Source of the DNA: Escherichia phage vB_EcoM_JNE01
Sequence record: OR670491
Direction: 5' to 3' (one strand)
DNA: 64,000 bases
Shown here: piece after piece, positions 49,313 to 60,831 of the stretch
Layout: each line of letters opens with the position of its first letter
Numbering within the stretch: position 1 is the first letter of the stretch
Notes under the pieces: model-generated
Databases searched by the model: none
What the model was told of the DNA's origin: nothing
The model's input: the letters and a program-made list of their open reading frames with translations, nothing else
Made by a program: the position numbers and the translations under genes

Positions 49313-49518
49313 CTCAAGAACAAATTATGCAGTACTACCTATGTGCTATATCAAAAGAACATCTGAATAGCATAGGGCATCAACAAATTATACTTGCAAA
49401 TGCGAAACGTTCGGCACTTCTGCTTAACTCCATCAGAAATAACCTCATAAGGAATTTTCTGGAAGGTAACGAATCTATGCAGTACTATTTCATCTTAACA
49501 CTACTAATCGAGTACTAA
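49309..49518 (+). CDS. small-ORF array member 2
   Basis: 69 aa; N-terminal ...QYY, C-terminal ...YYFILTLLIEY. Confidence 0.45.
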   Translation: MTQEQIMQYYLCAISKEHLNSIGHQQIILANAKRSALLLNSIRNNLIRNFLEGNESMQYYFILTLLIEY

Positions 49519-49722
49519 ATGAATAAAGAACAATTATTTCAGTACTATAAAAGTACTCTGTCCAAAGGTCTACAGGAAAGTATAGCAGTTGAGTCTGCAA
49601 TACTACAGAACCTTAATGCAGTAGAATTCACAAACAGAATCACCAGGCACGCACAAAATGCTTTACAAGGACATGAAACCTTGAGATACTATCACATCAT
49701 CGTGCTTTGTATGGAGGTATAA
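49519..49722 (+). CDS. small-ORF array member 3
   Basis: 67 aa; ...FQYYKSTLSK ... YYHIIVLCMEV. Confidence 0.45.
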   Translation: MNKEQLFQYYKSTLSKGLQESIAVESAILQNLNAVEFTNRITRHAQNALQGHETLRYYHIIVLCMEV

Positions 49723-49730
49723 CAGAACAA

Positions 49731-49922
49731 ATGAATCCAGAACATCTAGAGTACTACAAGACATTCATGAACCACAAGGATCAGTACAGTTACAATACTG
49801 CTATGGGGCATTTTCGATACCATACCAAAAAAATGCAAAAGCACACACTAACACTATGGACTGTACAAGCACAACGAGACGAACTAAGATTGTGTGCTAT
49901 AATTAAAATCCTGAACATCTAA
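49731..49922 (+). CDS. small-ORF array member 4
   Basis: Internal ATG of track ORF 49707; MNPEHLEYYKT... Confidence 0.4.
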   Translation: MNPEHLEYYKTFMNHKDQYSYNTAMGHFRYHTKKMQKHTLTLWTVQAQRDELRLCAIIKILNI

Positions 49923-49930
49923 GGAATACT

Positions 49931-50122
49931 ATGTACGAGCACAAAGAACAGTACTTAAACACTCTACCTAAAGATATACAAAGAGCATTCCCTTGTGCTC
50001 CGTGGGATTTAAACAGTAAATGGGGTTTTATTGAGTTCTATAACGATGTATGTATTGTACTGGAAAGTAAGTCCCTCTCAATGCAGTACTGTTCAATCTT
50101 GAACCTAATTTTTAAGTACTAA
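49931..50122 (+). CDS. small-ORF array member 5
   Basis: MYEHKEQYLNTLP ... LNLIFKY. Confidence 0.45.
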   Translation: MYEHKEQYLNTLPKDIQRAFPCAPWDLNSKWGFIEFYNDVCIVLESKSLSMQYCSILNLIFKY

Positions 50123-50126
50123 AACT

Positions 50127-50306
50127 ATGCAAACATTCTATACAGATAGACTAAGCCTTAGAGATACTTTTATGTACGAAACCTTTGTTAAGTACTATAA
50201 CTTAGGTACTCCAATTACAAAGAATATTAATCTACAGCACTGCACACACTCAGCAGTACATGACCACGATCCGTACAGATACATCTTAGCCCTTTTAAGT
50301 ATATAA
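50127..50306 (+). CDS. small-ORF array member 6
   Basis: 59 aa (not in track): MQTFYTDRLS ... YRYILALLSI. Confidence 0.35.
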   Translation: MQTFYTDRLSLRDTFMYETFVKYYNLGTPITKNINLQHCTHSAVHDHDPYRYILALLSI

Positions 50307-50315
50307 GGAACACTA

Positions 50316-50990
50316 ATGAAACTCAATAATTACAGTAAACAATACCTAAAGCATTTTAAGTACCTCAAAAGCATTAAGGCTGAATCTATCACCAGCAGCT
50401 ACGTTTACAGCCCTAATGTACTAAAACAATTAAAGTACAAGAAAGAAAAAGTATCAAAGAACCTCAAAAAGTTTCTTAAGCACAAAGACGCAAAGATTCA
50501 GTACTTGAACATTAAAAACGATCATCCAGTACTAAGCCTCAATACAAGTCTAAAGAATCTGGATAACTCTTCATTTATGCTTGAGTTCAATATAAATGAA
50601 AATACTCCAGCGGTTTTTACAATTGCGTATAATAAAGCACAAATCTTTTTAGGTGCAAAAACCGCACTTAAACTCAGTAAAGCACAATTCTGTTTAGGTG
50701 ACCAGTACTACGTAGGTAGTGTACATATTGAACTCGAAAAAGATATGTACTTCGGTAGTACCCACGATAATCCAGAACATAAAGATACTATTGACTTCTT
50801 CAGGAATCTCCCTAAAGAGTATTCAGAAGATGAAATGTTCCAGTGGAGTACTATTATTAAAGACCCACATCTTTGCTACGAAGTGTATAAGAAAGTACAA
50901 GGGATTAAACAAATGATTAAAGAAAATAAAAAAATGTACCAACTCTTGCAGTTCTTAACCGGAGAAAATCTAATTGTTCAAAGACCATAA
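50316..50990 (+). CDS. hypothetical protein inserted in the small-ORF array
   Basis: 224-aa ORF with repeated KxxYLK-like segments. Confidence 0.45.
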   Translation: MKLNNYSKQYLKHFKYLKSIKAESITSSYVYSPNVLKQLKYKKEKVSKNLKKFLKHKDAKIQYLNIKNDHPVLSLNTSLKNLDNSSFMLEFNINENTPAVFTIAYNKAQIFLGAKTALKLSKAQFCLGDQYYVGSVHIELEKDMYFGSTHDNPEHKDTIDFFRNLPKEYSEDEMFQWSTIIKDPHLCYEVYKKVQGIKQMIKENKKMYQLLQFLTGENLIVQRP

Positions 50991-51168
50991 AGAGTACTAC
51001 AGAAATCAACTCCCAAAGGAATGGCAAATAACATTAGAAACTAACCTAGCACAGATATATACCCAGAAGTTTCTTGCTATGACATGGGAGCACTGCATTG
51101 AGTCAGTACTGAATTCTTCAAATGAATCACAATATCTCAATACTCTTTTACTTGTATATAAATTCTAA
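50974..51168 (+). CDS. small-ORF array member 7
   Basis: (M)FKDHKEYYRNQLP ... LLLVYKF; apparent TTG start overlapping the upstream gene. Confidence 0.35.
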   Translation: MFKDHKEYYRNQLPKEWQITLETNLAQIYTQKFLAMTWEHCIESVLNSSNESQYLNTLLLVYKF

Positions 51169-51181
51169 AAAGGAATAACAA

Positions 51182-51388
51182 ATGCAATTCCATGAACATA
51201 TGGAGTACTACAGAAAACAACTACCAGAACCTTTATCGATGATAATCGGTTCCAGAAGTTTAATAAGTAATCCCAATTTTCATATGCGTAGTCACTATAA
51301 ATGTACTGCTTCAATTTGTAATGGAACTGCTCACAATGAACCGCACCAGCATCTATACCAAATCCTTAAACTAATATATCAGTACTAA
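51182..51388 (+). CDS. small-ORF array member 8
   Basis: MQFHEHMEYYRKQLP ... LKLIYQY. Confidence 0.45.
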   Translation: MQFHEHMEYYRKQLPEPLSMIIGSRSLISNPNFHMRSHYKCTASICNGTAHNEPHQHLYQILKLIYQY

Positions 51389-51391
51389 ATT

Positions 51392-51583
51392 ATGCACGAA
51401 TATAAAGAGTACTACAAAGATAAAATCCCAAAGTTTCTACAATACCAAATACCAGATGCTGCACTAGGAATAAATGATGTGCACACCTGTACAAGATTCT
51501 ATCAATGCACTGAAAGTTTTCTGGTAGATGATTATGACCAATGCAAGGTGTACTATGTTATTTCACTAATATATAGGTACTAA
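51392..51583 (+). CDS. small-ORF array member 9
   Basis: MHEYKEYYKDKIP ... ISLIYRY. Confidence 0.45.
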   Translation: MHEYKEYYKDKIPKFLQYQIPDAALGINDVHTCTRFYQCTESFLVDDYDQCKVYYVISLIYRY

Positions 51584-51586
51584 ATC

Positions 51587-51766
51587 ATGCACAACGATTT
51601 CTATATACAAAAACTTATCGACGCTGGCCTGGAAAGCTTCCCGATAAATCCTGTACAAACAAAAGGATTGCACTGGTACTTCATCCCCTGTACTAAAGCA
51701 TGTATAAACCCCAGCAATTACAAGGATCTATACCACAATATATTAATACTCGCATTGAGGTACTAA
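51587..51766 (+). CDS. small-ORF array member 10
   Basis: 59 aa (not in track): MHNDFYIQKL ... ILILALRY. Confidence 0.35.
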   Translation: MHNDFYIQKLIDAGLESFPINPVQTKGLHWYFIPCTKACINPSNYKDLYHNILILALRY

Positions 51767-51769
51767 ATT

Positions 51770-51952
51770 ATGCAAGAACACTTGGAGTACTACAGAAGCC
51801 ATCTCCCAAAGAAGGCACAAAGAAACTTCGACCAACAATATATAAACCAAAAGAATCAGTTCTATAATGCATTCTATTCGTCTATGAAAACTATTGCTAT
51901 ACAAGGCAAAGACCCGTACTATAGCATCCTGAACATCATCTTCAAGTACTAA
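51770..51952 (+). CDS. small-ORF array member 11
   Basis: MQEHLEYYRSHLP ... LNIIFKY. Confidence 0.45.
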   Translation: MQEHLEYYRSHLPKKAQRNFDQQYINQKNQFYNAFYSSMKTIAIQGKDPYYSILNIIFKY

Positions 51953-51955
51953 AGC

Positions 51956-52141
51956 ATGTACAGAGACTTCTATATAAGTAAACTTAATCCTGTACTACAA
52001 ACTCGTATTCCTCCAGCGAAATTTATCCTCAAAACAAAAGCACAAAGGTATGAGTTCAAAAAGTGTACAAAAGAAATACTCAGTACTAAAAGTAATAAGA
52101 ACATATACTATCAAGTACTCGTCCTTATATTCAAGTACTAA
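51956..52141 (+). CDS. small-ORF array member 12
   Basis: MYRDFYISKLNP ... VLVLIFKY. Confidence 0.45.
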   Translation: MYRDFYISKLNPVLQTRIPPAKFILKTKAQRYEFKKCTKEILSTKSNKNIYYQVLVLIFKY

Positions 52142-52161
52142 AGTACTAAAGGAATAAACAT

Positions 52162-52356
52162 ATGCAACACCAGCACAAATTGTACTACACGCAATTTCTT
52201 AATCAGCAACTACAACAATTTATACCTAATGAACCATTACCATATGATCATCCCCTGGGTGCACGCGTTTTCAAAAGAACTATTAATGAACTATTGAGTA
52301 CTACCGACGACGATTCCCTGTACTACTGCTTAATTAAACTTATATATAGGCACTAA
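52162..52356 (+). CDS. small-ORF array member 13
   Basis: MQHQHKLYYTQFL ... LIKLIYRH. Confidence 0.45.
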   Translation: MQHQHKLYYTQFLNQQLQQFIPNEPLPYDHPLGARVFKRTINELLSTTDDDSLYYCLIKLIYRH

Positions 52357-52357
52357 T

Positions 52358-52552
52358 ATGCAACTCCTGCACAGAGAATACTACACACAATTCCTTAAAG
52401 AGAACTACAGAGATTCAGTCCCCGTAACTCCTTTTGACCCAAATAACCCAAGTTCAATCTTCCTCTTTAACGACGCAACACGTACTGCACTCTGTACTAC
52501 CAATAAACATTGGCACTACGCATTTGTACTTATACTTATATACAGACACTAA
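52358..52552 (+). CDS. small-ORF array member 14
   Basis: MQLLHREYYTQFL ... LILIYRH. Confidence 0.45.
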   Translation: MQLLHREYYTQFLKENYRDSVPVTPFDPNNPSSIFLFNDATRTALCTTNKHWHYAFVLILIYRH

Positions 52553-52561
52553 GGCACTAAC

Positions 52562-52747
52562 ATGAATGAGCACAGAGAGTACTACATAAAGAGACTTCAC
52601 CCCGACCTACGAGATACTATACCATTCGTTCCACATAATATACATGAACCCGTAGTGCAGTACTACTTTAATATAACAGTACAAGCCGCATTAAGTGAAT
52701 ATAGACTTGAGTACTTCACTGTACTAAAACTTATATATAAGTACTAA
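52562..52747 (+). CDS. small-ORF array member 15
   Basis: MNEHREYYIKRLHP ... LKLIYKY. Confidence 0.45.
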   Translation: MNEHREYYIKRLHPDLRDTIPFVPHNIHEPVVQYYFNITVQAALSEYRLEYFTVLKLIYKY

Positions 52748-52812
52748 CCCCTTGACATATACTCCAAGAATGATATACTACTTTCTATATAGAAACAATA
52801 CAGAGATAACAT

Positions 52813-53022
52813 ATGCACGAACATAAAGATTTCTATGTAAGCCAACTCCCCGTAATAGACCAATTCTGGTTAGCTGATGCAGCACCGTGTAATACAGATA
52901 CTAAGTACGGACAATTGTGCTTTGTTGAATCTATAAAGAAAGTACTACAACAAGATAAAACTAAGTACCGTAAAGAAAAAGACTTGTACTTTAATATAGT
53001 AGAACTTACCTTTATGTTCTAG
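52813..53022 (+). CDS. small-ORF array member 16
   Basis: MHEHKDFYVSQLP ... VELTFMF. Confidence 0.45.
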   Translation: MHEHKDFYVSQLPVIDQFWLADAAPCNTDTKYGQLCFVESIKKVLQQDKTKYRKEKDLYFNIVELTFMF

Positions 53023-53343
53023 TATAGAGAATAGTACAGGATACTAAGGTCTAGATGTGTTCCTAGGGAAGCATTATAACAGGCTTTAACATCTCGTAAA
53101 GATGTTAAAATTCAGCCTGCTCGACGTCTGAATTGTTAAAATTCAGCCTGGACAAATGCGATCACTAGGATTCTATCTAGGCTGAATCCCGTAATCACAA
53201 GTACGCATATGTAATCATATATAAACATTTCCGTGAGAAGTTTTGAGTACTGTATAGTATTAAGAATCACCGTAGGAGCACAGAATGATTAAGAATGCAC
53301 GGGAATGATTCAGAATGATTCAGTACTGATATGTCACTAAGTA

Positions 53344-53369
53344 GGCAGAGGAAGTCTGCCGTACTTTTT
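53344..53369 (+). terminator. rho-independent terminator (approximate coordinates)
   Basis: GGCAGA-ggaag-TCTGCC followed by GTACTTTTT. Confidence 0.45.
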
Positions 53370-53707
53370 AGTTTCCAAGCTCCTTTTCCATTTTTCAAAT
53401 TACATCAAATGCAATCAAAAGTAATCACGCAATGATTAGTACTGAATTATTACTTTCACCTTAATTTCAAATACCCGTTGACCCTTCGGGGTAAAATTCC
53501 ATTACCCCTTGAGGCTCCAGCAAAAAGTTGGTTAGTACTCCATCCTAAATCTCGATCCTAAAAATTTTGGAGTACCTATGAAATAAAAGTTGGATCTTCG
53601 AAAGTTGAAATTTACGTTGGGATGATTAGGATTTGTGAACTATAATGTAGTTCAAGTTGGAGTACAGAGTGAGAACAATCTAGAGTACTGAAAGATGAAA
53701 TAACATC

Positions 53708-53735
53708 TTGACAATACAATTCAGTACTGTATAAT
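53708..53735 (+). promoter_or_regulatory. orphan sigma70-type promoter in non-coding region
   Basis: TTGACA, 16-nt spacer ending cagtactg, TATAAT; no ORF within 1.3 kb downstream. Confidence 0.45.
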
Positions 53736-54202
53736 GTTGTACATAGGGTGAGGGAACGGCGGCAACTGTTCCTTAATCTCAGTATCATGTCGTGAGACAT
53801 TACGCAAGTTATATCCTCCTGTGCATAGTGCTGGTGGTTATCTCTTGAACCTCATTTTTTCTCGTGAACTAAACAGTACTGATATTAACAGAATGGTAGC
53901 AGTACTGATATTAATCTAATGCATTATGCCACCAGCTTGTGCTGGTGGATTCCCTCTAACAGTATTCAGTACTACATGATGGTCTTCATCCTCCTGGGGT
54001 AACATAGTGAAGGTTATGATGGCAGTACTGAATACTCCAAACTCAAGATGGATTAAGGGTGTAGTACTGACGGATTTTGGGTGTAGTTACCCTGGATGGA
54101 TTTTGGACGTAGATATGTCTAGCCCTCCAGAAGTCTGGAAGTAAAGATGGCTATCCATCTAGACGGCTAAACGGCTAGATTTCTGGATGGCTGGACGTTT
54201 GG

Positions 54203-54234
54203 ACGGCTAAACGGCTAAACGGCTAAACGGCTAA
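54203..54234. repeat. iteron-like tandem repeat (ACGGCTAA x4)
   Basis: Four perfect 8-bp units with degenerate copies and GGATGG/GGACG motifs on both sides. Confidence 0.6.
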
Positions 54235-54878
54235 ACGTCTGGATGTATGGATGGCTAAATCAAAATTTTATTTTGTTTTTTCCAATAGTTCCCCTACCGC
54301 GTGGGGATAGTTTCCCCGCAGTATCTGGTGTTAGATTTTTCTGAATCTGGAATCATTATCTTATAAACTGGGGGCAATGTCAACGGCCTGGACGGATATT
54401 TTTAAAAATTTTTTCAGTACTGAATTTTGGGCGTAACTATGCACCCGGTGGGCTTGAGTCTTTCTCGACTTGATGGAACTATTATACAGTACTGAAAAAA
54501 TAAAGCAATACCCTGGAAGCAAAAAAGTTTTAATTAATTTGCTTGCTATCCTGGGCCGGACTATGGTACTATATTTCAGTACTGAGAAAGTGCGTTTACC
54601 TGCTAGGGTGCGGGAGTGTATCCTTTTTTTATATCTTGAATTTTGGACGGATCTTCCCACCCCCTGGGGTATCCGCTTTCTCGCGTCTATGTAGTAATTA
54701 TACGCTTTTTCAGGATCAAGTCAATACCTAAAAACAAAATAATTGAAAATAATTTAACGCGTTTAAACGGCCCGTAACGCCCTGGAATGATTAGAATGGT
54801 GCAAATGTATAGCTTAGGTGTATTAATGCGTTAGAATGCGTCTGAGGCCGTTTTATGGGGTGTAGTAGTGATTTGGTT

Positions 54879-55046
54879 GATTCAGTACTGAATAATAGTA
54901 CTCCTATATAGAAAGATAGTTCCCCTGGATTGATTCAGTACTGAATGATAGTACTGAATAATAGTACTCCTATATAGAAAGATAGTTCCCCTGGATTGAT
55001 TCAGTACTGAATGATAGTACTGAATAATAGTTCCCCTATATAGAAA
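54879..55046. repeat. tandem direct repeats (unit 53-66 bp, about 2.5 copies)
   Basis: Unit GATTCAGTACTGAATGATAGTACTGAATAATAGTACTCCTATATAGAAAGATAGTTCCCCTGGATT, each copy carrying 2-3 AGTACT palindromes. Confidence 0.65.
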
Positions 55047-55079
55047 GAAAACTATTTTAAAAGTATTTGTAGAAAGTAC

Positions 55080-55139
55080 TTGCACAGTACTGATAAAAGC
55101 GTATAATGTTTTACATCGAGAGCGGGAACTCTTCCCGCT
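55080..55139 (+). promoter_or_regulatory. promoter / 5' stem-loop cassette
   Basis: TTGCAC, 16-nt spacer, TATAAT (55102-55107), gttttacatc, hairpin AGCGGGAA-ctc-TTCCCGCT (55121-55139). Confidence 0.6.
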
Positions 55140-55162
55140 ACACTTTAAGAGAGATTAATACG

Positions 55163-55525
55163 ATGGCGACTCAAATCACTAAAATCATTGCTAACCTGGT
55201 TAACTTCCGCGACGATATGAAAGATCTTCCGGCGGCAACGGTTAAAACTCACATTGACGCATACCGCGAACTGATTAAAATGCTGCCGCTTAAGCGTGAA
55301 CAATACGCCGCCACCGTGATGCTTGATGCGATGATCCATAAGATGATCGCCAGTGATTTAACGATGGCTTATCAGTATATGGGTGAATTGTTCGCGGTGT
55401 ATAGTAAACCAGTACCAGGAATGGAAAGTACAGAAGTATTACACGGTTTAAATTTAAAACAAGATGCATGGGATAATATGCCTCGTTTCCTGGTATGGGC
55501 TGACAGTGGCAAAATTTACGAATAA
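55163..55525 (+). CDS. hypothetical protein
   Basis: Internal ATG (frame +57) of track ORF 55106, downstream of the cassette hairpin. Confidence 0.5.
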   Translation: MATQITKIIANLVNFRDDMKDLPAATVKTHIDAYRELIKMLPLKREQYAATVMLDAMIHKMIASDLTMAYQYMGELFAVYSKPVPGMESTEVLHGLNLKQDAWDNMPRFLVWADSGKIYE

Positions 55526-55538
55526 GTTAAAAATTAGT

Positions 55539-55597
55539 TTGACAGTACTGAATAAAAGCGTATAATGTTTTACATCAGGTGGGGAATAGTTCCCCAC
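55539..55597 (+). promoter_or_regulatory. promoter / 5' stem-loop cassette
   Basis: TTGACA-N16-TATAAT; hairpin GTGGGGAA-tag-TTCCCCAC. Confidence 0.6.
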
Positions 55598-55617
55598 TAT
55601 ATAAGAGGATTAAAAAA

Positions 55618-55857
55618 ATGGCTAAATCAAAAATGTTCTTAGGTCACAAAAATAAAACTCATTGGAATGTAAGCCTTTGGATTAATAACGATGAGGGATT
55701 GTATCGGTTGGCCCAGGACTTTATTAACGATAGCACTAATCGCAATGATGCGGCCCGTCATATGATGTTATTTTTAGAACAGACTGGACAAGATAAAACA
55801 CCGGACGGATTCAAATATAGCACTACTGCGATCCGTGCGGCAATGGTAGGAATGTAA
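55618..55857 (+). CDS. hypothetical protein (paralog of 57659..57898)
   Basis: 79 aa; shared GHKNKTHWNVSLWINN ... TPDGFKYSTTAIRAAMVGM. Confidence 0.5.
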   Translation: MAKSKMFLGHKNKTHWNVSLWINNDEGLYRLAQDFINDSTNRNDAARHMMLFLEQTGQDKTPDGFKYSTTAIRAAMVGM

Positions 55858-55943
55858 TAGAATATATTTAAAGTACTATCATTTTTTTGCGATAGTACTT
55901 TATAATAGTGTTTTATTCATACACCAACGATAAGGGCAACAGC

Positions 55944-56210
55944 ATGAATATTAAGTATTTTGCGACGCGTGAACAAGCTCGGATCGCCGCTCGCCAGGAC
56001 GGGGCAACGTTTAAAGATATGGGCGTACAATCGGAACGTGGTAAACGTTGGGCCATTGTAAAGCGTAGTACCGCCAGATCATTACAGTACTGGTTAGCGG
56101 CCTTAAAAAGTCCCGATAGTGTATCGCGTCGAGTGGTAGAAATAAAGCTCGACCGAAAGGGCAACCGCGTGACCGTGTACCGTACTAAAAAGATAGCAGT
56201 ACTTGAATAA
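55944..56210 (+). CDS. hypothetical basic protein
   Basis: Internal ATG (frame +36) of track ORF 55908. Confidence 0.45.
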   Translation: MNIKYFATREQARIAARQDGATFKDMGVQSERGKRWAIVKRSTARSLQYWLAALKSPDSVSRRVVEIKLDRKGNRVTVYRTKKIAVLE

Positions 56211-56217
56211 AAAGTAC

Positions 56218-56276
56218 TTGCAAACTATGTTTAATGGCGTATAATGTTTTACATCGAGAGCGGGAACTCTTCCCGC
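56218..56276 (+). promoter_or_regulatory. promoter / 5' stem-loop cassette
   Basis: TTGCAA-N16-TATAAT; hairpin GCGGGAA-ctc-TTCCCGC. Confidence 0.6.
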
Positions 56277-56297
56277 CTATAACCTGGAGTAATAAAA

Positions 56298-56528
56298 ATG
56301 ACTAATATGTATATGACTGAAGTTAAAACCGTAAAAGATACTACCACGAATAAAACTACTTACTTACAGCGGATCTGCGGTGTATGGCAACGTATCAGCA
56401 AATCAAAGTACTTTAAATTAACATCATATGCAAATCGTTCGGATTCATTCAGTACTGAAATAAAAGGTAATAAAGTACACCAATACGGCACTTATTATTA
56501 TTACAGCCTGGACGCGATTGCAGTATAA
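56298..56528 (+). CDS. hypothetical protein
   Basis: 76-aa ORF with GGAG RBS. Confidence 0.45.
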   Translation: MTNMYMTEVKTVKDTTTNKTTYLQRICGVWQRISKSKYFKLTSYANRSDSFSTEIKGNKVHQYGTYYYYSLDAIAV

Positions 56529-56778
56529 GCAGTTTACAAATCTTTACAATTGCCGGTATTGACTTATTTTGTCAGTACTGGCATAATGTATTCATTGGCA
56601 GATAAGCCGTAGCCCATAGGGTGCGGGAGTGTATCTATAGAAAAATTAGTTTAGTATAGTTACAATTGTGCACCCGGTGGGTTAGCTGTTGTCATGGGGT
56701 ATATTATGCCAGTACTTGATAATTCTGTCAATACTTTTTTTTTACTATTCAGTACTGAAAACTATTTTTAAAAAGTAC

Positions 56779-56896
56779 TTGCAAACTATGTTTAAAGGCG
56801 TATAATGTTTTACATCAGGACGGGGAACGAAATAAGTAACTTCCCGTTAAGTAGCCCAGGAGTAAGGCACACGAAAAACTCCCCTGATAAAATAGT
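56779..56896 (+). promoter_or_regulatory. orphan promoter with ~90-nt structured leader (candidate small RNA)
   Basis: TTGCAA-N16-TATAAT (to 56806), then tacatcaggacggggaac...acgaaaaactcccctga with no ORF; a second promoter follows. Confidence 0.45.
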
Positions 56897-56924
56897 TTGA
56901 CAAATGTTTTTAAAAGCGTATAAT
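56897..56924 (+). promoter_or_regulatory. sigma70-type promoter
   Basis: TTGACA-N16-TATAAT, 32 nt upstream of the 56957 ATG. Confidence 0.55.
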
Positions 56925-56956
56925 ACTTACATCAACTACTGAATGAGGGTTACAAA

Positions 56957-57568
56957 ATGAAAACTATCACTACTACTACTTTCGTTATGGATTTTTCTGA
57001 ATTGAACGCAGAACAACAAACGTCAGCTATCGAACTGGTTCGGGATCGTGAGCGTTCATGTGAGGATAATTTCTTTGCTGAGGGCGTTATCGAGTACTAT
57101 AAAGAAACAGTACTACCAGAATACGGCATAGATGAAGCTGAATTGCAATACAGTGGTTTTTGGTCGCAAGGTGACGGTGCATCAATCAGTACTGACAGCG
57201 TGGACGCAGTGAAGTTTTTACGCAAGATTAAAGCGTTAACGAAATATCGTTCTATCCGTCACTTGTTGAATGAAGATGATTTGGCAATGAGTGTAGAACG
57301 TTCACACTCTCGCTACGCACACGAAAACACGGTAAGCGGGTACATTGAATCGGCTTACACTGATTTAACCGCAAAACAAGAAACGTTAGTTAATGAGCTT
57401 GAGGAACTACTCACTGATACTATTCGTGAATTGTCCCGCAAGTTGTACCGTGATTTAGAGAATGCATATGAGGATCAATTCACTACTGAAAACATTACGG
57501 CACTGATTGAGGGTAACGAATATCAATTCAATGTTATTGATGGCGTAGTGGAATCAATCGAATATTAA
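56957..57568 (+). CDS. hypothetical acidic protein
   Basis: 203-aa ORF with GAGGGT RBS. Confidence 0.5.
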   Translation: MKTITTTTFVMDFSELNAEQQTSAIELVRDRERSCEDNFFAEGVIEYYKETVLPEYGIDEAELQYSGFWSQGDGASISTDSVDAVKFLRKIKALTKYRSIRHLLNEDDLAMSVERSHSRYAHENTVSGYIESAYTDLTAKQETLVNELEELLTDTIRELSRKLYRDLENAYEDQFTTENITALIEGNEYQFNVIDGVVESIEY

Positions 57569-57580
57569 TTTAAAAAGTAC

Positions 57581-57640
57581 TTGCAAACTAAGTTTAAAAG
57601 CGTATAATACTTTATATCGAGGCGGGGAGTGGTTCCCCGC
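57581..57640 (+). promoter_or_regulatory. promoter / 5' stem-loop cassette
   Basis: TTGCAA-N16-TATAAT; hairpin GCGGGGA-gtggt-TCCCCGC. Confidence 0.6.
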
Positions 57641-57658
57641 TCAAACGAGGATTTAAAA

Positions 57659-57898
57659 ATGGCTAGTACTAAAACTTACAACGGACACAAAAACAAAACT
57701 CATTGGAATGTAAGCCTTTGGATTAATAACGGTGAGTCATTGTATCGGCTTGCTCAAAGTTGCATCGCACAAAGTAGAACTAAAGATATTGCTGCGGAAT
57801 GTATGTACCGCAGATTAAAAGCCAACGGTACTACTACAACGCCGGACGGCTTTAAGTATAGCACTACTGCGATCCGTGCTGCAATGGTTGGAATGTAA
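57659..57898 (+). CDS. hypothetical protein (paralog of 55618..55857)
   Basis: 79 aa sharing the GHKNKTHWNVSLWINN motif. Confidence 0.5.
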   Translation: MASTKTYNGHKNKTHWNVSLWINNGESLYRLAQSCIAQSRTKDIAAECMYRRLKANGTTTTPDGFKYSTTAIRAAMVGM

Positions 57899-57955
57899 TA
57901 TTCAGTACTGAGATAATGGCGGGTAATAGTTCCCGCCTTTACTGAGGGTTATCTA

Positions 57956-58216
57956 ATGAGTAAAGTAATTAGCTATACAGCACTAAGCAAGACATTATCT
58001 ATTAGCCAGTGCACCGATGGTTATTGGCTATTTGATGAAACGCGTGGCATGAATTTAGCGATGCGTGCAAAAACTGCTGAGGCGGCGTATATTCAAGCAC
58101 TGGAATACTACCAGGAACGTTTAAAGGAAGTAGAAGAAGATTATAAAAGCCTCAAAGCGAAAGTAGATCATTTCGTCGGTCAATTCAACGAGGAAGACGA
58201 CGACAAACAATATTGA
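57956..58216 (+). CDS. hypothetical protein
   Basis: 86-aa ORF preceded by hairpin GGCGGG...CCCGCC and GAGGGT. Confidence 0.45.
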   Translation: MSKVISYTALSKTLSISQCTDGYWLFDETRGMNLAMRAKTAEAAYIQALEYYQERLKEVEEDYKSLKAKVDHFVGQFNEEDDDKQY

Positions 58217-58224
58217 AAAAGTAC

Positions 58225-58283
58225 TTGCAATTAGTTTTCAGTACTGTATAATGGTTTACATCAAAGGGAGAAATGGTTCTCCC
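58225..58283 (+). promoter_or_regulatory. promoter / 5' stem-loop cassette
   Basis: TTGCAA-N16-TATAAT; hairpin GGGAGAA-atgg-TTCTCCC. Confidence 0.6.
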
Positions 58284-58302
58284 TGGTAATGAGGAAAATA
58301 AA

Positions 58303-58524
58303 ATGGCTAATATCACTACTCTTTCCCAACTGGAAGCACTGGTGAAATCTATGCGGGAACATGCCGACAAAATCGGCGTACAAGATCCAGCCGTTTGCTT
58401 CTGCGACGAATTGAATGATGATACCCTGGTAATAGCAGAAGTCCAGGACGTTTCTAACTATTCCTCGCGTTACACTGGCGGCGTAGCAAATAAAGGCGAC
58501 TTCTGTTTATACCTTACAAAATAA
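58303..58524 (+). CDS. hypothetical protein
   Basis: Internal ATG (frame +30) of track ORF 58273. Confidence 0.45.
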   Translation: MANITTLSQLEALVKSMREHADKIGVQDPAVCFCDELNDDTLVIAEVQDVSNYSSRYTGGVANKGDFCLYLTK

Positions 58525-58529
58525 CAACG

Positions 58530-58559
58530 CGGGGAGATAATAACTCCCCGTTACTTTTT
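58530..58559 (+). terminator. rho-independent terminator
   Basis: CGGGGAG-ataataa-CTCCCCG followed by TTACTTTTT. Confidence 0.6.
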
Positions 58560-58692
58560 CAGTACTGAATCATTTAATAGACGGATCTCGGCACCCGGTG
58601 GGTTAGTGACTGTTTCGTCTTGATGTAGTAATTATGCCAGTACTGGATGCACTTGTCAACAACTATTTTTCAAATACTTTTTATTAAAATAC

Positions 58693-58740
58693 TTGCAATT
58701 AGTTTTTAAACGCGTATAATGTTTTGCATAGGGGGAGCGG
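58693..58740 (+). promoter_or_regulatory. promoter / 5' stem-loop cassette
   Basis: TTGCAA-N16-TATAAT; short hairpin GGGGA-gcggt-TCCCC. Confidence 0.55.
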
Positions 58741-58767
58741 TTCCCCTGGTAACTAAGGAATAATAAA

Positions 58768-59004
58768 ATGCTTGAACAAATCAAATCAACGTCTGCGAAT
58801 GTAACGGGAACGGTATCACACTTTACTAGTGATGAATCGCGTGGTGTTCCTTATTGTGCTGTACATGTAAACACTGATGGCAACTACTGGTTTACGGTTT
58901 ACGGATCATATTCATTTGGACGGCCAGGGCATCAAAAAATTCTGGATAAAGTACAACCAACGGGTAAAAATATCACTGCCGAAATGTTTTATAAAAAATC
59001 ATAA
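58768..59004 (+). CDS. hypothetical protein
   Basis: 78-aa ORF. Confidence 0.45.
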   Translation: MLEQIKSTSANVTGTVSHFTSDESRGVPYCAVHVNTDGNYWFTVYGSYSFGRPGHQKILDKVQPTGKNITAEMFYKKS

Positions 59005-59009
59005 AGTAC

Positions 59010-59069
59010 TTGCAATTAGTTTTTAGTACTGTATAATATTTTACATCGCAAGGGGAAACGGTTTCCCCT
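59010..59069 (+). promoter_or_regulatory. promoter / 5' stem-loop cassette
   Basis: TTGCAA-N16-TATAAT; hairpin AGGGGAAA-cgg-TTTCCCCT. Confidence 0.6.
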
Positions 59070-59088
59070 GGTAACTAAGGATAATCAA

Positions 59089-59388
59089 ATGAAAGTTGCA
59101 ATCATCGCCCTGGCTTTATCTGTATCGTCTTTCGCTGTTAACGCTTCCGTTGATGTACCGCGTGAAAAATTCATTCAGTGCACTGTTGCAATGACTAACG
59201 AGGAAACGGCTGAGATTGTTACCAAATCCCTGGAACTGGCCCCTGCAATGTTTGCTAATGGCCCGTACCATGAAGAAGATGATCAGGGTAGCACGACCAT
59301 CTATTACGATGCAAAAAGTAAACGCGGTTCAGTTACTGTAATGGATACTGAGAAAGTTACATTCACGGGAGTAATTAATTGTTTTTAA
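59089..59388 (+). CDS. hypothetical secreted protein
   Basis: Signal-peptide-like MKVAIIALALSVSSFAVNA. Confidence 0.5.
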   Translation: MKVAIIALALSVSSFAVNASVDVPREKFIQCTVAMTNEETAEIVTKSLELAPAMFANGPYHEEDDQGSTTIYYDAKSKRGSVTVMDTEKVTFTGVINCF

Positions 59389-59405
59389 TGAAGTACTGAA
59401 TCATA

Positions 59406-59433
59406 AGCCCACTATAAGAAGTGGGCTTTTTTT
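59406..59433 (+). terminator. rho-independent terminator
   Basis: AGCCCAC-tataagaa-GTGGGCT + T7. Confidence 0.6.
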
Positions 59434-59475
59434 ATTGTAGTACTGAATACTTTAAAAATAGTTTTGAAATAGTAG

Positions 59476-59618
59476 TTGACATTACCAGGGAAAGGCGTAG
59501 AATGTATTACATCAGGACGGGGAACACTAAGTAGACCGCCAGTAAGTCGAACGAAAAACTGGACACGACCTGGAAACTTTGATAAACTAACTTACACTTT
59601 AATTGAGGAATTAAAAAA
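59476..59618 (+). promoter_or_regulatory. promoter with long structured leader (second copy of the 56807 leader motif)
   Basis: TTGACA-N16-TAGAAT, then tacatcaggacggggaac ... cgaacgaaaaactgg, 115-nt leader before ATG. Confidence 0.45.
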
Positions 59619-60098
59619 ATGGCAAATGTAAAATCATTCTTTAAAGCACTGGTATCTTCTGACGTATCTATCGCCGCTGAATTGCTGGCTGACCTGGATA
59701 ATGATACCATGAAAGCAGTACGCAATAATTTTAATATGGCGTACAGTGCAGCAAAAGAACTGCAAGCCAAAAAGGTAGCAGAACTGGAAGCGGCAAAGGC
59801 AGAACGTGAAGCAGAACTGCAAGCAACAATCGAAAGCATCCAGGCGGCGGTAAGTGGATTGGATATCGAGATCGTAACCGATATGGCACATAAAGCCCTA
59901 GCTGCAAAATACGGTGAAGTAAAAGCGGTTAAAGAAAAGAAATGGATTCAGGACCGCGTTAACGTAGTACTTGACAACGGGGAAGAATATCTTATTCCTG
60001 TACGCGGTAACTGCATTGCCGTAGTACTGGACGCGATTAACTCCAGTGGTATGACACGCGAGGAATGGATCGAAGCTCATCGCAAAGTTGAAGCATAA
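59619..60098 (+). CDS. hypothetical protein
   Basis: 159-aa ORF, Ala/Glu/Lys-rich central segment. Confidence 0.5.
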   Translation: MANVKSFFKALVSSDVSIAAELLADLDNDTMKAVRNNFNMAYSAAKELQAKKVAELEAAKAEREAELQATIESIQAAVSGLDIEIVTDMAHKALAAKYGEVKAVKEKKWIQDRVNVVLDNGEEYLIPVRGNCIAVVLDAINSSGMTREEWIEAHRKVEA

Positions 60099-60119
60099 CA
60101 ATAAAAGTACTGAATCACT

Positions 60120-60146
60120 AGCCCACCTTAAACGGTGGGCTTTTTT
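60120..60146 (+). terminator. rho-independent terminator
   Basis: AGCCCACC-ttaaac-GGTGGGCT + T6. Confidence 0.6.
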
Positions 60147-60300
60147 GTGTTTATCGTTTACCAGGCCACCAGCACCGCCTAGAAACGATTCTAACGCATT
60201 AAACTGATTATCTGATGCATTGCCCTAGCTGGTGGCGTTAAGGCTGTAAGAACGCGATTGAGAGCGTTTAAAGTATTTTGCAAAAAGTAATAAAAAGTAC

Positions 60301-60328
60301 TTGCACGATTAAGAGATTAGCGTATAAT
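60301..60328 (+). promoter_or_regulatory. sigma70-type promoter
   Basis: TTGCAC-N16-TATAAT with A-rich upstream tract. Confidence 0.5.
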
Positions 60329-60373
60329 TAATTACATCAAGGCAAGACACCTTAACTAACTGAGGATATAAAG

Positions 60374-60526: not shown

Positions 60527-60534
60527 AAAATAGT

Positions 60535-60563
60535 TTGACAATAGTTTTAAGTACTGGCATAAT
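60535..60563 (+). promoter_or_regulatory. sigma70-type promoter (class B, CATAAT -10)
   Basis: TTGACA, 17-nt spacer ending agtactgg, CATAAT. Confidence 0.5.
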
Positions 60564-60595
60564 ACATACATCAACTACTGAATAGGAATTAAAAA

Positions 60596-60823: not shown

Positions 60824-60831
60824 AAAAGTAC

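What the first reader, a model, noticed from the sequence alone, without database searches (positions are those of the whole stretch)
53040..55079. Two-kilobase non-coding, repeat-rich region: iteron-like repeats, tandem 66-bp repeats and an orphan promoter
No ORF of 100 aa or more spans about 2 kb. The region contains ACGGCTAA x4 (54203-54234) with GGATGG/GGACG motifs nearby, 2.5 tandem copies of a 53-66-bp unit full of AGTACT palindromes (54879-55046), short direct repeats (GTTAAAATTCAGCCTG x2, GAATGATT x3), a UUCG-loop hairpin, and an orphan promoter at about 53708. It could be a replication origin, packaging site, small-RNA cluster or a recombination junction between two genome modules. 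It sits exactly where base composition and gene architecture change.
Basis: seen in the sequence. Interest (0 to 1): 0.65.

Follow-up and report, generated by a model that had tools for sequence, protein, structure and literature searches.

The report
Genome end and untranslated terminal-repeat leader
The gene-free 2 kb is where this giant E. coli phage's DNA molecule physically begins: the start of its roughly 21-kb terminal repeat, followed by a conserved untranslated control region carrying a promoter, a host recombination hotspot, a protein-binding-type repeat array and small gene-less transcription units.

Summary
In detail: no ORF of 100 aa or more, and every listed repeat and the promoter were found. 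The window comes from an Asteriusvirus jumbo coliphage (PBECO4/121Q/G17 group). The mapped genome ends of two relatives, fEgEco12 and G17, both align to window 53340. That position is the left boundary of the ~21-kb direct terminal repeat (DTR).

- **53040-53339** is the variable tail of the unique genome.
- **53340-55162** is a 1.8-kb untranslated DTR leader before the first early gene. It is as conserved as the neighbouring coding DNA, has no conserved ORF, and is collinear in three other jumbo-phage genera.

The leader holds:
- the cut site (CACTA^AGTAGG)
- a conserved sigma-70 promoter driving a structured ORF-less RNA
- a Chi/anti-Chi palindrome
- a ~19-unit 8-bp array, of which ACGGCTAA x4 is only the perfect core
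- three ORF-less promoter-plus-motif units
- a copy-variable 66-bp repeat

The whole DTR is Chi-dense and orientation-biased in three genera. No DnaA boxes, iterons or AT-rich unwinding element were found.

The "packaging site / module junction" reading is supported and the small-RNA reading is plausible. The origin reading is not supported. The functions I propose are inferred, not shown.

The parts
53040..53339 (.). Tail of the unique genome just outside the terminal repeat. It holds TGTTAAAATTCAGCCTG x2 (53103, 53134), a 9-bp-stem inverted repeat (about 53141-53187) and GAATGATT-type 10-bp repeats (53281-53323). Only the last ~25 bp before the cut (TTCAGTACTGATATGYCACTA) are well conserved.
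   Evidence: Homology with most relatives starts only at 53130/53134, with CMSTMSU exactly at 53340 and with EJP2 at 53546. Conservation is 0.42-0.81. Repeats, junction alignment.
53335..53345 (.). Physical genome terminus and left DTR boundary. The cut lies between 53339 and 53340 (CACTA^AGTAGG).
   Evidence: fEgEco12 record position 1 (PhageTerm plus restriction digests, PMC13070987) and the reverse-complemented right end of the G17 record both align to window 53340. The vB_Ec-M-J DTR start (357,049) matches the position predicted within 1 nt. The outside flank ends in CTA at all five mapped junctions in three genera.
53341..53369 (+). Hairpin GGCAGAGGAAGTCTGCC plus a T-run in the first 30 nt of the repeat. 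It is terminator-like and could stop read-through from the unique region in concatemeric or circular DNA, or serve as an end structure.
   Evidence: Terminator scan. Conserved in 11 of 13 genomes. Kae01 also has an inverted repeat in its first 24 nt.
53534..53576 (.). Element A: AGTACTCCATCCTAAATCTCGATCCTAAAAATTTTGGAGTACC. It is the most conserved block of the leader and is also present near the termini of other genera.
   Evidence: 0.97-0.98 conservation within the genus. 93% identical to fENko-Kae01 86-128 and 82% to XbC2 54-120.
53708..53735 (+). It faces into the repeat, 368 bp from the genome end.
   Evidence: TTGACA-16-TATAAT, 12/12. Conserved in 13/13 genomes. An equivalent promoter sits at the same relative place in Kae01, XbC2 and Muenster.
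53743..53950 (+). Inferred ORF-less structured transcript. It has a 5' hairpin, a GUGA-loop hairpin, a hairpin formed by two CAGTACTG copies, and a terminal Chi hairpin.
   Evidence: RNA MFE -63.3 kcal/mol, z = -3.18, 0 of 200 shuffles as good. Consensus fold of 8 relatives has 53 pairs, 8 with compensatory double changes. No conserved ORF. Transcription itself is not shown.
53929..53948 (.). Chi/anti-Chi palindrome CCACCAGC-TTGT-GCTGGTGG. CCACCAGC is the orientation read by RecBCD entering from the left genome end, 590 bp away. There is no U-tract, so it is not a canonical terminator.
   Evidence: CCACCAGC is present in 11 of 13 Asteriusvirus genomes, with a loop flip TTGT/ACAA. The same palindrome lies at Kae01 484-503. 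An extra phage-specific Chi lies at 53830.
54091..54258 (.). Array of about 19-21 in-phase 8-bp units, AYGKCTRR (ACGGCTAA, ACGGCTAG, ATGGCTGG, ACGTCTGG and similar). It is a candidate multimeric protein-binding array.
   Evidence: Indels among 13 relatives are multiples of 8 bp. The same unit family lies near genome ends of XbC2, the T7-like phages KPV811 and PGT2, and the T5-like Vibrio phage Pontus.
54258..54270 (+). IHF consensus (WATCAANNNNTTR) AATCAAAATTTTA, abutting the array.
   Evidence: One of only 3 matches in the 64-kb window. Conserved in 12/13 genomes. Binding is not tested.
54355..54383 (-). Leftward promoter TTGACA-17-GATAAT, pointing at the array and the genome end.
   Evidence: 11/12 match. 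The region is 0.91-0.97 conserved. The same arrangement is seen in Kae01.
54436..54508 (-). ORF-less unit 'E'. Leftward promoter (-35 TTGCTT 54508-54503, -10 TATAAT 54486-54481), followed by the motif GCCCACCGGGTGC (54453-54441).
   Evidence: The 16 nt TTCAGTACTGTATAAT is a perfect inverted copy of the 53708 promoter core (I12). Family listing. Conservation 0.95-0.98.
54543..54631 (+). ORF-less unit. Weak promoter TTGCTA-18-TACTAT (54543-54572), then ...GCTAGGGTGCGGGAGTGTATCC followed by T7 (terminator-like, 54605-54631). Predicted RNA of about 50 nt.
   Evidence: 72% identical over 223 bp to Klebsiella phages Muenster, RaK2 and K64-1.
54640..54724 (-). ORF-less unit 'F'. Leftward early-type promoter TTGACT-16-TATAAT (54724-54697), then hairpin GGATACCCCAGGGGGTGGGAAGATCC (54674-54649). 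It is the most deeply conserved block across genera.
   Evidence: 87-90% identical to XbC2 998-1071 and Kae01 1073-1124.
54884..55048 (.). 66-bp tandem repeat, 2.5 copies, rich in (C)AGTACT(G). Copy number is variable between phages.
   Evidence: Relatives carry 1-1.5 copies.
55080..55162 (+). Early-class promoter of the first DTR gene (TTGCAC-16-TATAAT, 55080-55107), 5' hairpin AGCGGGAActcTTCCCGCT (55121-55139) and Shine-Dalgarno sequence.
   Evidence: Same architecture as about 20 other promoters in the DTR part of the window. 0.87-0.99 conserved.
55163..55525 (+). First protein-coding gene of the terminal repeat (120 aa, unknown function; equals fEgEco12 g01).
   Evidence: Annotated in G17, SP27, PBECO4, fEgEco12 and others. 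Matches phrog_7352, unknown function. No Pfam hit.

Best explanation
The stretch straddles the left boundary of the phage's ~21-kb direct terminal repeat.

**Shown by homology to mapped relatives**
- The packaged DNA molecule begins at window 53340. DNA to the left is the variable end of the unique genome.
- 53340-55162 is a conserved untranslated leader that precedes the first of many small early genes, each with its own promoter.

**Inferred function: a composite cis-acting control region for the genome end**
1. The terminase system cuts at CACTA^AGTAGG here. It cuts at an inverted copy of the motif (GCTA^AGG on the other strand) at the far DTR boundary. These are staggered nicks about 21 kb apart on opposite strands. 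Strand-displacement synthesis across the repeat would give each packaged genome a full copy, as in the T7 model.
2. After injection, host RecBCD entering the ends meets Chi. The leader palindrome provides the correctly oriented Chi 590 bp from the left end. The rest of the DTR carries 7-12 Chi oriented against entry from the right end. Degradation would therefore switch to RecA loading and recombination between the two repeat copies, giving circles or concatemers, as proposed for P1.
3. The 8-bp array with its adjacent IHF consensus is a binding platform for a multimeric protein. The small terminase or another end-handling factor is most likely.
4. Host RNA polymerase fires from the conserved inward promoter and from three ORF-less units, two of which face the end. 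These make short non-coding RNAs of unknown role.
For: **Identity of the phage.** 41 Asteriusvirus records match at 80-95% identity.

**Terminus.**
- fEgEco12 position 1 and the G17 record end both align to 53340.
- The DTRs are exact duplications of 20,993 and 20,668 bp.
- DTRs were determined independently by PhageTerm plus digests, by coverage, and by PhageTerm.
- The vB_Ec-M-J DTR start agrees within 1 nt.
- Homology breakpoints fall at or near 53340.

**Non-coding and constrained.**
- Curated annotations leave the region empty.
- No ORF is intact across 13 genomes except one 44-aa TTG ORF without a Shine-Dalgarno sequence.
- Conservation is 0.83-0.99 over 53880-54870, equal to the adjacent CDS.
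- The leader is collinear in three other genera whose records start at a PhageTerm DTR.

**Cut motif.** CTA^ lies on the outside flank at 5/5 mapped junctions.

**Chi.**
- GCTGGTGG occurs 10 times against 0.41 expected in the fEgEco12 DTR, with a maximum of 3 in 500 simulations.
- Orientation is 10:2 (fEgEco12), 9:1 (G17), 12:2 (Kae01) and 7:1 (Muenster). There is 1 Chi in 75.8 kb of unique DNA.
- P1 is the precedent.

**Array.**. IHF consensus.

**Promoters and units.**. RNA structure.
Against: - The window alone cannot show the duplication or the ends. The terminus is inferred from relatives that are 83-90% identical here.
- No function was tested. Cutting chemistry, RecBCD involvement, protein binding and transcription are all inferences.
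- The Chi palindrome is missing in A4 and in Muenster.
- The 8-bp array is replaced by different repeats in Kae01 and Muenster. Neither element can therefore be indispensable in that exact form.
- The array lies about 750-920 bp from the cut, farther than lambda cosB lies from cosN.
- The proposed long-hairpin structure of the motif units was not supported. Own versus cross 5'/3' complementarity was -3.94 versus -3.96 kcal/mol.
- Right-boundary junctions of the three genera are probably homologous, so the cut-motif recurrences are not all independent.
Confidence: 0.8

Rival explanations
1. The leader is a T5-like injection-stop or pausing region. The genome enters right end first, so the right DTR copy with its ~55 early genes is delivered as a first-step-transfer segment. 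The untranslated repeat-rich leader at the inner end of that copy, straddling the DTR/unique boundary, would halt or pace transfer until early proteins are made.
For: - The topology mirrors T5. The T5 LTR is 1-10139, with a 1.2-kb conserved untranslated Repeat Region 3 (9194-10409) straddling the LTR end and proposed to contain iss. The essential pre-early genes dmp, A1 and A2 point toward the entering end.
- Here all DTR genes point to the right end, and the leader overruns about 200 bp into unique DNA.
- Chi sites are overwhelmingly oriented against RecBCD entry from the right end (29:5). That is expected if the right end is exposed first.
- The T5-like phage Pontus carries the same 8-bp array next to DnaA boxes near its record start.
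Against: - The leader has no DnaA boxes, which is the conserved feature of T5-like iss regions.
- T5 itself lacks the 8-bp array.
- There is no evidence on which end enters first, or that transfer is two-step, in any Rak2-like phage.
- The iss mechanism is itself unresolved.
Confidence: 0.15
2. The main function is a cluster of small non-coding RNA genes: the ~200-nt RNA from the 53708 promoter plus three ~50-70-nt RNAs of the RCCC-N3-GGGTGC family. These would act early on host or phage targets.
For: - The promoter is conserved in 13/13 genomes and the transcript is structured (z = -3.18), with compensatory changes.
- 43 motif copies in five DTR sequences (four phages, three genera) are all inside the DTRs, and 42 have a sigma-70-like promoter within 75 nt upstream.
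- One copy ends in a T7 terminator-like run.
- There are no conserved ORFs.
Against: - No Rfam family matches.
- No consensus secondary structure exists beyond a 3-4-bp apical stem, and there is no instance-specific stem complementarity.
- Most copies lack a terminator.
- This reading does not explain the array, the terminus, Chi or element A.
- Transcription was not observed.
Confidence: 0.3
3. The region is a replication origin. The repeats would act as iterons, or promoter-driven R-loop priming would occur as at T4 or T7 origins, with leftward promoters transcribing into the array.
For: - Promoters converge on the array (53708 on the plus strand; 54383, 54508 and 54724 on the minus strand).
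- GC skew changes sign near 53,000.
- A moderately A/T-rich run lies at 54260-54290 next to the array.
- T7 has a replication promoter in its left-end non-coding region (from my own knowledge, not tested here).
Against: - The units are 8 bp, not 17-22-bp iterons.
- There are no DnaA boxes and no 40-nt window of 85% A+T or more.
- No replication initiator gene lies nearby. All ten DTR proteins scanned in PHROGs and ten (overlapping set) scanned in Pfam gave no functional assignment.
- The skew change coincides with a change of gene module and strand composition, not with a clean skew minimum.
- The array is absent from two related genera that keep the rest of the leader.
Confidence: 0.12
4. The region encodes several very small proteins, as automatic annotations of some relatives suggest, or it is decaying junk at a recombination junction.
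For: Automated records place 5-8 hypothetical proteins of 30-80 aa on it. DNA left of 53340 is variable between phages.
Against: - Those ORFs are interrupted by stops or frameshifts in most of 13 genomes.
- Curated annotations omit them.
- About 1.3 kb is 83-99% conserved, and blocks are 87-93% identical across genera that share only about 29% overall identity. This is incompatible with junk.
Confidence: 0.04

Closest known systems
Bacteriophage T5 left terminal repeat, untranslated Repeat Region 3 (contains the proposed injection stop signal)
   Same: Both are long terminal repeats (10 kb in T5, 21 kb here) full of small early genes. Both have a >1-kb untranslated stretch crowded with repeats, inverted repeats and palindromes that is better conserved than many neighbouring ORFs and straddles the repeat/unique boundary.
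   Different: T5 region 3 is defined by paired DnaA boxes and GTGCAAATCCGACA (DRD) repeats. Neither occurs here. T5 lacks the 8-bp array and has only 2 Chi in its LTR. Two-step injection is unknown for Rak2-like phages.
Bacteriophage T7 genome ends: direct terminal repeat generated from concatemers, short repeat arrays and strong host-RNAP promoters in the non-coding left end (from my own knowledge, not tested here)
   Same: Both have exact, sequence-defined ends with a direct repeat. Both have short tandem repeat arrays close to the end, and T7-like KPV811 and PGT2 carry the same AYGKCTRR-type units within ~150 bp of their ends. In both, the first functional element inward is a sigma-70 promoter a few hundred bp from the end.
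   Different: The repeat is 21 kb instead of 160 bp and encodes ~55 genes. The array lies 750-920 bp from the end. The cut motif is different. T7's own arrays use a different unit.
Phage P1 terminal redundancy with clustered Chi sites (Subramaniam and Smith, bioRxiv 10.1101/2021.07.08.451572; PMC12315714)
   Same: Chi octamers are strongly concentrated in the DNA that forms the terminal repeats of packaged genomes. Their orientation is suited to RecBCD entering from the ends, and the proposed role is RecBCD/RecA-promoted circularisation.
   Different: P1 is temperate, headful-packaged from pac, and has variable, permuted redundancy. Here the ends are fixed and the phage is a virulent jumbo myovirus. 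The dependence on RecBCD is experimentally supported for P1 and untested here.
Lambda cosB (terminase small-subunit R sites interspersed with an IHF site next to the cut site cosN; from my own knowledge, not tested here)
   Same: Multiple short repeated sites plus an IHF consensus lie near a terminase cut site.
   Different: The units are 8 bp in about 19 contiguous in-phase copies rather than three 16-bp R sites. They lie ~750 bp from the cut. The ends carry a long direct repeat rather than 12-nt cohesive ends. No binding data exist.

Membership tests
Boundary of the long direct terminal repeat of Asteriusvirus genomes | Sequence is orthologous to the experimentally or bioinformatically mapped physical terminus of related phages | tested here: met
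   fEgEco12 position 1 and the G17 record end both align to window 53340. The termini come from PhageTerm plus digests, from coverage, and from PhageTerm.
Boundary of the long direct terminal repeat of Asteriusvirus genomes | DNA to the right of the boundary is present at both ends of the packaged genome | tested here: met
   Met in relatives: 100% identical 20,993-bp and 20,668-bp copies at both ends of the fEgEco12 and G17 records. It cannot be tested for this phage from a 64-kb window.
Boundary of the long direct terminal repeat of Asteriusvirus genomes | Two-fold read coverage and sharp read-start peaks at the boundaries in this phage's own virion DNA | not testable with these tools
   No reads are available.
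Iteron- or DnaA-type replication origin | Three or more direct repeats of ~17-22 bp (iterons) and/or DnaA boxes | tested here: not met
   The repeat unit is 8 bp. There are no TTWTNCACA matches on either strand in 52800-55300.
Iteron- or DnaA-type replication origin | Adjacent AT-rich unwinding element | tested here: not met
   No 40-nt window with 85% A+T or more in 53000-55200.
Iteron- or DnaA-type replication origin | Initiator gene next to the repeats | tested here: inconclusive
   Neighbouring proteins have no recognisable function. Absence of a match does not exclude a novel initiator.
T5-type injection stop (iss) region | Large conserved untranslated repeat region at the repeat/unique boundary of a long terminal repeat | tested here: met
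   Searches compared.
T5-type injection stop (iss) region | Paired DnaA boxes in large inverted repeats (IRD'-spacer-IRC') | tested here: not met
   No DnaA boxes. No long inverted repeat pair of that kind was found.
T5-type injection stop (iss) region | Two-step DNA transfer stopping at the region | not testable with these tools
   Needs interrupted-infection experiments.
Chi recombination hotspot (E. coli RecBCD) | Exact octamer 5'-GCTGGTGG-3' | tested here: met
   53830 and 53941 on the plus strand and 53929 on the minus strand in the leader. DTR-wide enrichment is 10 against 0.41 expected.
Chi recombination hotspot (E. coli RecBCD) | Orientation such that RecBCD entering from a nearby DNA end meets Chi from its 3' side | tested here: met
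   CCACCAGC lies 590 bp from the left end. 29 of 34 DTR Chi sites in three genera face the right end.
Chi recombination hotspot (E. coli RecBCD) | RecBCD-dependent stimulation of recombination or protection from degradation | not testable with these tools
   Requires genetics in recBCD and recA hosts and Chi-mutant phage.
Known small-RNA or tRNA families | Match to a curated covariance model or tRNA model | tested here: not met
   0 tRNA/tmRNA. 0 Rfam hits at gathering score in the window. Only chance-level hits at E up to 5 in 53000-57000.
cos/pac-type terminase recognition region | Repeated small-terminase binding sites with a host bending-protein site near the cut | tested here: inconclusive
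   An array plus IHF consensus is present, but it lies 750-920 bp from the cut. The array is absent in two related genera. No binding data exist and no small terminase has been identified.

The most novel reading that the evidence does not exclude
The ~21-kb terminal repeat of Rak2-like jumbo phages is a self-contained first-entry module. The right end enters first and is shielded from RecBCD by a one-directional series of Chi sites. About 55 individually promoted early genes are expressed from it. The untranslated leader at its inner edge is the cis-acting centre that (a) pauses or gates transfer of the remaining 330 kb, (b) is where terminase nicks to regenerate the repeat, and (c) emits a new family of DTR-specific small RNAs. 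This would be a T5-like two-step strategy combined with deliberate hijacking of host Chi/RecBCD recombination, in virulent jumbo phages.
Probability: 0.12. Interest if true: 0.75.

Novelty: new member of a known kind. Interest (0 to 1): 0.45.

Why it matters
- **Genome ends.** It fixes where the genome of this phage group really starts. Many Asteriusvirus records are opened arbitrarily, or carry spurious 30-80-aa "genes" over this region.
- **Engineering.** It identifies the cis elements that any engineering, packaging or synthetic rebooting of these therapeutic-candidate jumbo phages must keep. These are the cut motif, the leader and the array.
- **Chi bias.** The DTR-wide, orientation-biased Chi enrichment appears in three genera. 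It suggests that virulent jumbo phages rely on host RecBCD-Chi-RecA to join their terminal repeats, an idea so far argued mainly for P1 and lambdoid phages. This is directly testable in rec mutants.
- **Shared array.** The 8-bp array shared with T7-like and T5-like phages points to a common, uncharacterised end-associated DNA element.

Tried and rejected
- **tRNA and Rfam.** tRNA/tmRNA scan and Rfam searches (gathering score on the whole window; E up to 5 on 53000-57000) gave nothing meaningful.
- **Conserved small ORFs.** Every ORF of 30 aa or more in the leader is broken in most relatives. The one exception is a 44-aa TTG ORF without a Shine-Dalgarno sequence, in a 93-97% identical stretch where the test has little power.
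- **Long-hairpin RNA model for the RCCC-N3-GGGTGC units.** I thought I saw covarying basal stems. A permutation test of own versus cross 5'/3' complementarity showed none (mean -3.94 vs -3.96 kcal/mol; 10,056 of 20,000 permutations as good). RNAalifold kept only a 3-bp apical stem. The structure claim is dropped and the sequence-motif family is kept.
- **Equating the 8-bp array with T5's DRD repeats.** T5 DRD is GTGCAAATCCGACA, and T5 has no AYGKCTRR array.
- **Origin signatures.** No DnaA boxes and no AT-rich element.
- **CCTCCT motifs in the promoter transcript.** I considered them as anti-Shine-Dalgarno sites or as minus-strand ribosome-binding sites. No conserved ORF follows them and their significance is unclear.
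- **The search for related loci in IMG/VR** with the first DTR protein returned only 121Q itself.
- **PHROGs and Pfam scans of DTR proteins**, looking for a RecBCD inhibitor, initiator or small terminase, returned only unknown-function families and sub-threshold hits.
- **Literature.** A search for CAGTACTG returned no phage-related paper among the ten top-ranked of 928. In the two Asteriusvirus papers I term-searched for this (fEgEco12, Sharanji), 'promoter' and 'non-coding' do not occur.


Full report
**What the window is.** The 2-kb query matches 41 phage records at 80-95% identity. Almost all are 320-386-kb Escherichia and Salmonella jumbo phages of the genus Asteriusvirus, such as PBECO4, 121Q, G17, SP27 and fEgEco12. 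Curated annotations of G17, PBECO4, SP27, BF17, A4 and 121Q leave the stretch without genes. Automatic annotations scatter 30-80-aa hypothetical proteins over it.

**Checking the observation.**
- No ORF of 100 aa or more; the longest is 99 aa.
- ACGGCTAA x4.4 at 54203-54237, and the 66-bp repeat x2.5 at 54884-55048.
- TGTTAAAATTCAGCCTG x2 and the GAATGATT repeats.
- A perfect sigma-70 consensus at 53708-53735.
- A switch in GC and AT skew at ~53,000.

Two refinements apply.
- The ACGGCTAA run is only the perfect core of a ~19-21-unit array with strict 8-bp periodicity (AYGKCTRR, about 54091-54258). It is the only such array in the window.
- The AGTACT palindromes are not special to this region. 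CAGTACTG occurs 53 times in the window against 1.1 expected, including inside coding sequence.

**What it is: the genome end.**
- In the longer records (367-384 kb) the match always lies ~20-22 kb from one record end.
- G17 and fEgEco12 carry exact terminal duplications of 20,668 and 20,993 bp.
- The fEgEco12 termini were determined with PhageTerm and confirmed by restriction digests. G17's repeat was seen by coverage. Sharanji's 20,668-bp DTR came from PhageTerm.
- Position 1 of fEgEco12 and the reverse-complemented end of G17 both align to exactly window 53340.
- The published vB_Ec-M-J DTR length places its boundary within 1 nt of the predicted position.
- Homology with CMSTMSU begins exactly at 53340. 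The 200-300 bp to the left are the least conserved part.

The finding therefore consists of the variable tail of the unique genome (53040-53339), the cut site, and a 1.8-kb untranslated leader (53340-55162). The leader precedes the first DTR gene, 55163-55525, which equals fEgEco12 g01.

**The leader is constrained but non-coding.**
- In a 13-genome alignment, 53340-53630 and 53880-54870 are 83-99% conserved. That is as high as the adjacent coding gene.
- No ORF stays intact across genomes. The exception is a 44-aa TTG ORF without a ribosome-binding site, in a nearly invariant stretch.
- The leaders of fENko-Kae01, Muenster (Alcyoneusvirus) and XbC2 (Mimasvirus) all start at a PhageTerm-defined DTR or at the record start. 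They are gene-poor for 1.3-1.7 kb and collinear with this one.
- Blocks in those leaders are 82-93% identical, although the genomes share only ~29% overall identity.

**Anatomy, left to right.**
1. *Cut site.* It reads CACTA^AGTAGG. The far DTR boundary reads, on the other strand, CGCTA^AGGTTA. Kae01 has CGCTA^TATCTT and GGCTA^AGGCAT. Muenster's right boundary is TGCTA^AGCCTA. An inverted CTA^ motif at the two boundaries fits nicks on opposite strands followed by displacement synthesis across the repeat, which is the T7-type way of regenerating a DTR. This is inference.
2. *Terminal hairpin.* A hairpin plus T-run lies in the first 30 nt.
3. *Element A* (53534-53576) is the best conserved block and is shared across genera.
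4. *The 'orphan' promoter* is conserved in 13/13 genomes. Its ~200-nt ORF-less transcript folds better than all 200 shuffles (z = -3.18). It shows 8 base pairs with compensatory double changes.
5. *Chi palindrome.* The transcript ends in CCACCAGC-TTGT-GCTGGTGG (53929-53948). It lacks a U-tract. It is conserved in most Asteriusviruses, with loop inversion, and is present at the same place in Kae01.
6. *The 8-bp array.* Its indels between phages are multiples of 8 bp. One of only three IHF consensus matches in the window abuts it.
   - Arrays of the same unit family sit within ~150 bp of the ends of the T7-like phages KPV811 and PGT2. They also occur in XbC2 and in the T5-like Vibrio phage Pontus.
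   - Kae01 and Muenster instead carry repeats resembling Fur boxes at that position (the Fur consensus is from memory).
7. *ORF-less promoter-plus-motif units.* There are three: one rightward (54543-54631, ending in a T7 run) and two leftward (54508-54436 and 54724-54640). A further leftward promoter lies at 54383-54355.
   - The motif RCCC-N3-4-GGGTGC occurs 43 times in the five DTR sequences examined (four phages, three genera).
   - It always lies inside the DTR, and 42 copies have a sigma-70-like promoter within 75 nt upstream.
8. *The 66-bp repeat.* Its extra copy is unique to this phage.
9. *The first gene's promoter* is of the early class and carries a 5' hairpin.

**Chi beyond the leader.** Following the palindrome led to a DTR-wide pattern.
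- GCTGGTGG occurs 10 times in the fEgEco12 DTR. An order-3 Markov model predicts 0.41, and the maximum in 500 simulations was 3.
- The sites lie in diverse coding and intergenic contexts.
- Orientation is 10:2 in fEgEco12, 9:1 in G17, 12:2 in Kae01 and 7:1 in Muenster. The 75.8 kb of unique DNA examined contains a single Chi.
- By the established polarity of Chi recognition, the majority orientation stops RecBCD entering from the right genome end. The leader's CCACCAGC is the first correctly oriented Chi for the left end.
- Smith and colleagues proposed exactly this use of clustered Chi sites for circularising P1's terminally redundant DNA. The fEgEco12 authors independently speculated that the DTR mediates circularisation.
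- I found no mention of jumbo phages in the two Chi papers read, and no mention of 121Q, PBECO4 or Asteriusvirus where each was searched.

**Rivals.**
- *Origin of replication.* This is not supported. There are no iterons of usual size, no DnaA boxes, no AT-rich element and no recognisable initiator.
- *T5-like injection-stop role.* The topology is attractive. T5's 1.2-kb untranslated Repeat Region 3 also straddles the repeat/unique boundary, and the Chi bias hints that the right end is the exposed one. However, the DnaA-box signature of T5 iss regions is absent, and entry polarity is unknown.
- *Small-RNA cluster.* This is plausible and not exclusive of the main explanation, but it is unproven. 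My initial impression of covarying stems in the motif units failed a permutation test.
- *Small proteins or junk.* Both are contradicted.

**Verdict.** The feature is real, and its identity is largely explained by genome architecture already published for sister phages: a DTR of about 20-21 kb. The internal anatomy of the boundary and leader is not mentioned in the papers I read. That anatomy comprises the cut motif, the Chi palindrome within a Chi-dense oriented DTR, the 8-bp array shared across phage families, and the DTR-specific ORF-less units. I file it as a new member of a known kind: an untranslated control region at the edge of a long terminal repeat, as in T5 and T7. Interest is moderate. 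All functional statements are inferences awaiting the experiments listed.

Noticed in passing
whole window, e.g. 1860, 12709, 24462, 26861, 40206, 53321-55092 (11 copies), 55543-62233: The 8-bp palindrome CAGTACTG occurs 53 times against 1.1 expected. AGTACT occurs 243 times against roughly 22 expected from base composition (my rough estimate, not a tool result). Copies lie both inside coding sequences and in promoter spacers (TTCAGTACTGTATAAT). The motif is also abundant in the Muenster DTR (61 in 20 kb against 11 in the next 20 kb). Such over-representation of a palindrome is unusual for a phage, and I found no explanation among the top-ranked papers of a literature search.
   Followed up: partly
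window 49309-53022 (+ strand): A tandem array of at least 14 paralogous genes of 59-69 aa, interrupted once by a 224-aa ORF at 50316-50990. They are packed end to end just outside the terminal repeat. They share a pattern (M..H.EYY...LP...Y..IL.LIYKY/LIYRH) and pairwise BLASTP E-values down to 5e-10. This module has negative GC skew and strongly positive AT skew despite being on the plus strand.
   Followed up: partly
DTRs of fEgEco12 (L005 1-20993), G17 (L003/L004), fENko-Kae01 (L010+L022 1-19736), Muenster (L011+L025 1-20030); window 53340-64000: Chi (GCTGGTGG) is about 25-fold enriched in the terminal repeats and almost absent from unique DNA (1 in 75.8 kb). The orientation bias is 10:2, 9:1, 12:2 and 7:1 toward the right end. 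In the window's DTR part: plus-strand sites at 53830, 53941 and 60228; minus-strand sites at 53929 and 60166.
   Followed up: yes
window 56559-56640 (+), 56731-56660 (-), 58659-58590 (-), 63043-63125 (+); also throughout the DTRs of fEgEco12, Kae01 and Muenster: More copies of the ORF-less unit, made of a sigma-70 promoter, 27-34 nt, and (R)CCCA(Y)N-GGGTGC-(R)NN(R)N-TGTATC(T). They occur in both orientations, sometimes as convergent pairs, with 9-11 copies per DTR and none outside it. No consensus RNA structure could be established.
   Followed up: partly
window 55539-55600, 56218-56290, 56779-56850, 57581-57650, 58225-58290, 59010-59080, 62344-62420, 63612-63680 and others: About 20 near-identical early promoters, (AAAAGTAC)TTGCAA/TTGACA-N16-TATAATGTTTTACATC. 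Each is followed by a short GGGGA...TCCCC-type 5' hairpin and then a Shine-Dalgarno sequence, with one promoter per small gene. The hairpin stems differ between genes but stay paired.
   Followed up: no
L011 (Muenster) 780-900 and 1080-1330; L010 (fENko-Kae01) 690-800: At the position of the 8-bp array, the Klebsiella-phage leaders carry several copies of GAGAATGATAATGATTCTCATTT-type repeats. These match the E. coli Fur-box consensus (recalled from memory as GATAATGATAATCATTATC) at about 16 of 19 positions.
   Followed up: no
L005 (fEgEco12) about 13480-13510, 16760-16790, 19500-19530; window about 63035-63065: Terminator hairpins of the form GGGATTGACTCCGGTCAGTCCC-TTT contain the -35 hexamer (TTGACT) of the following ORF-less unit. 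The terminator and the next promoter are fused.
   Followed up: no
window 53815, 53990 (relatives have three copies in the same ~200 nt): CCTCCT, the complement of a strong Shine-Dalgarno sequence, recurs within and just after the transcript of the 53708 promoter. Elsewhere in the window this hexamer mainly marks ribosome-binding sites of minus-strand genes, but no conserved minus-strand ORF follows here.
   Followed up: partly
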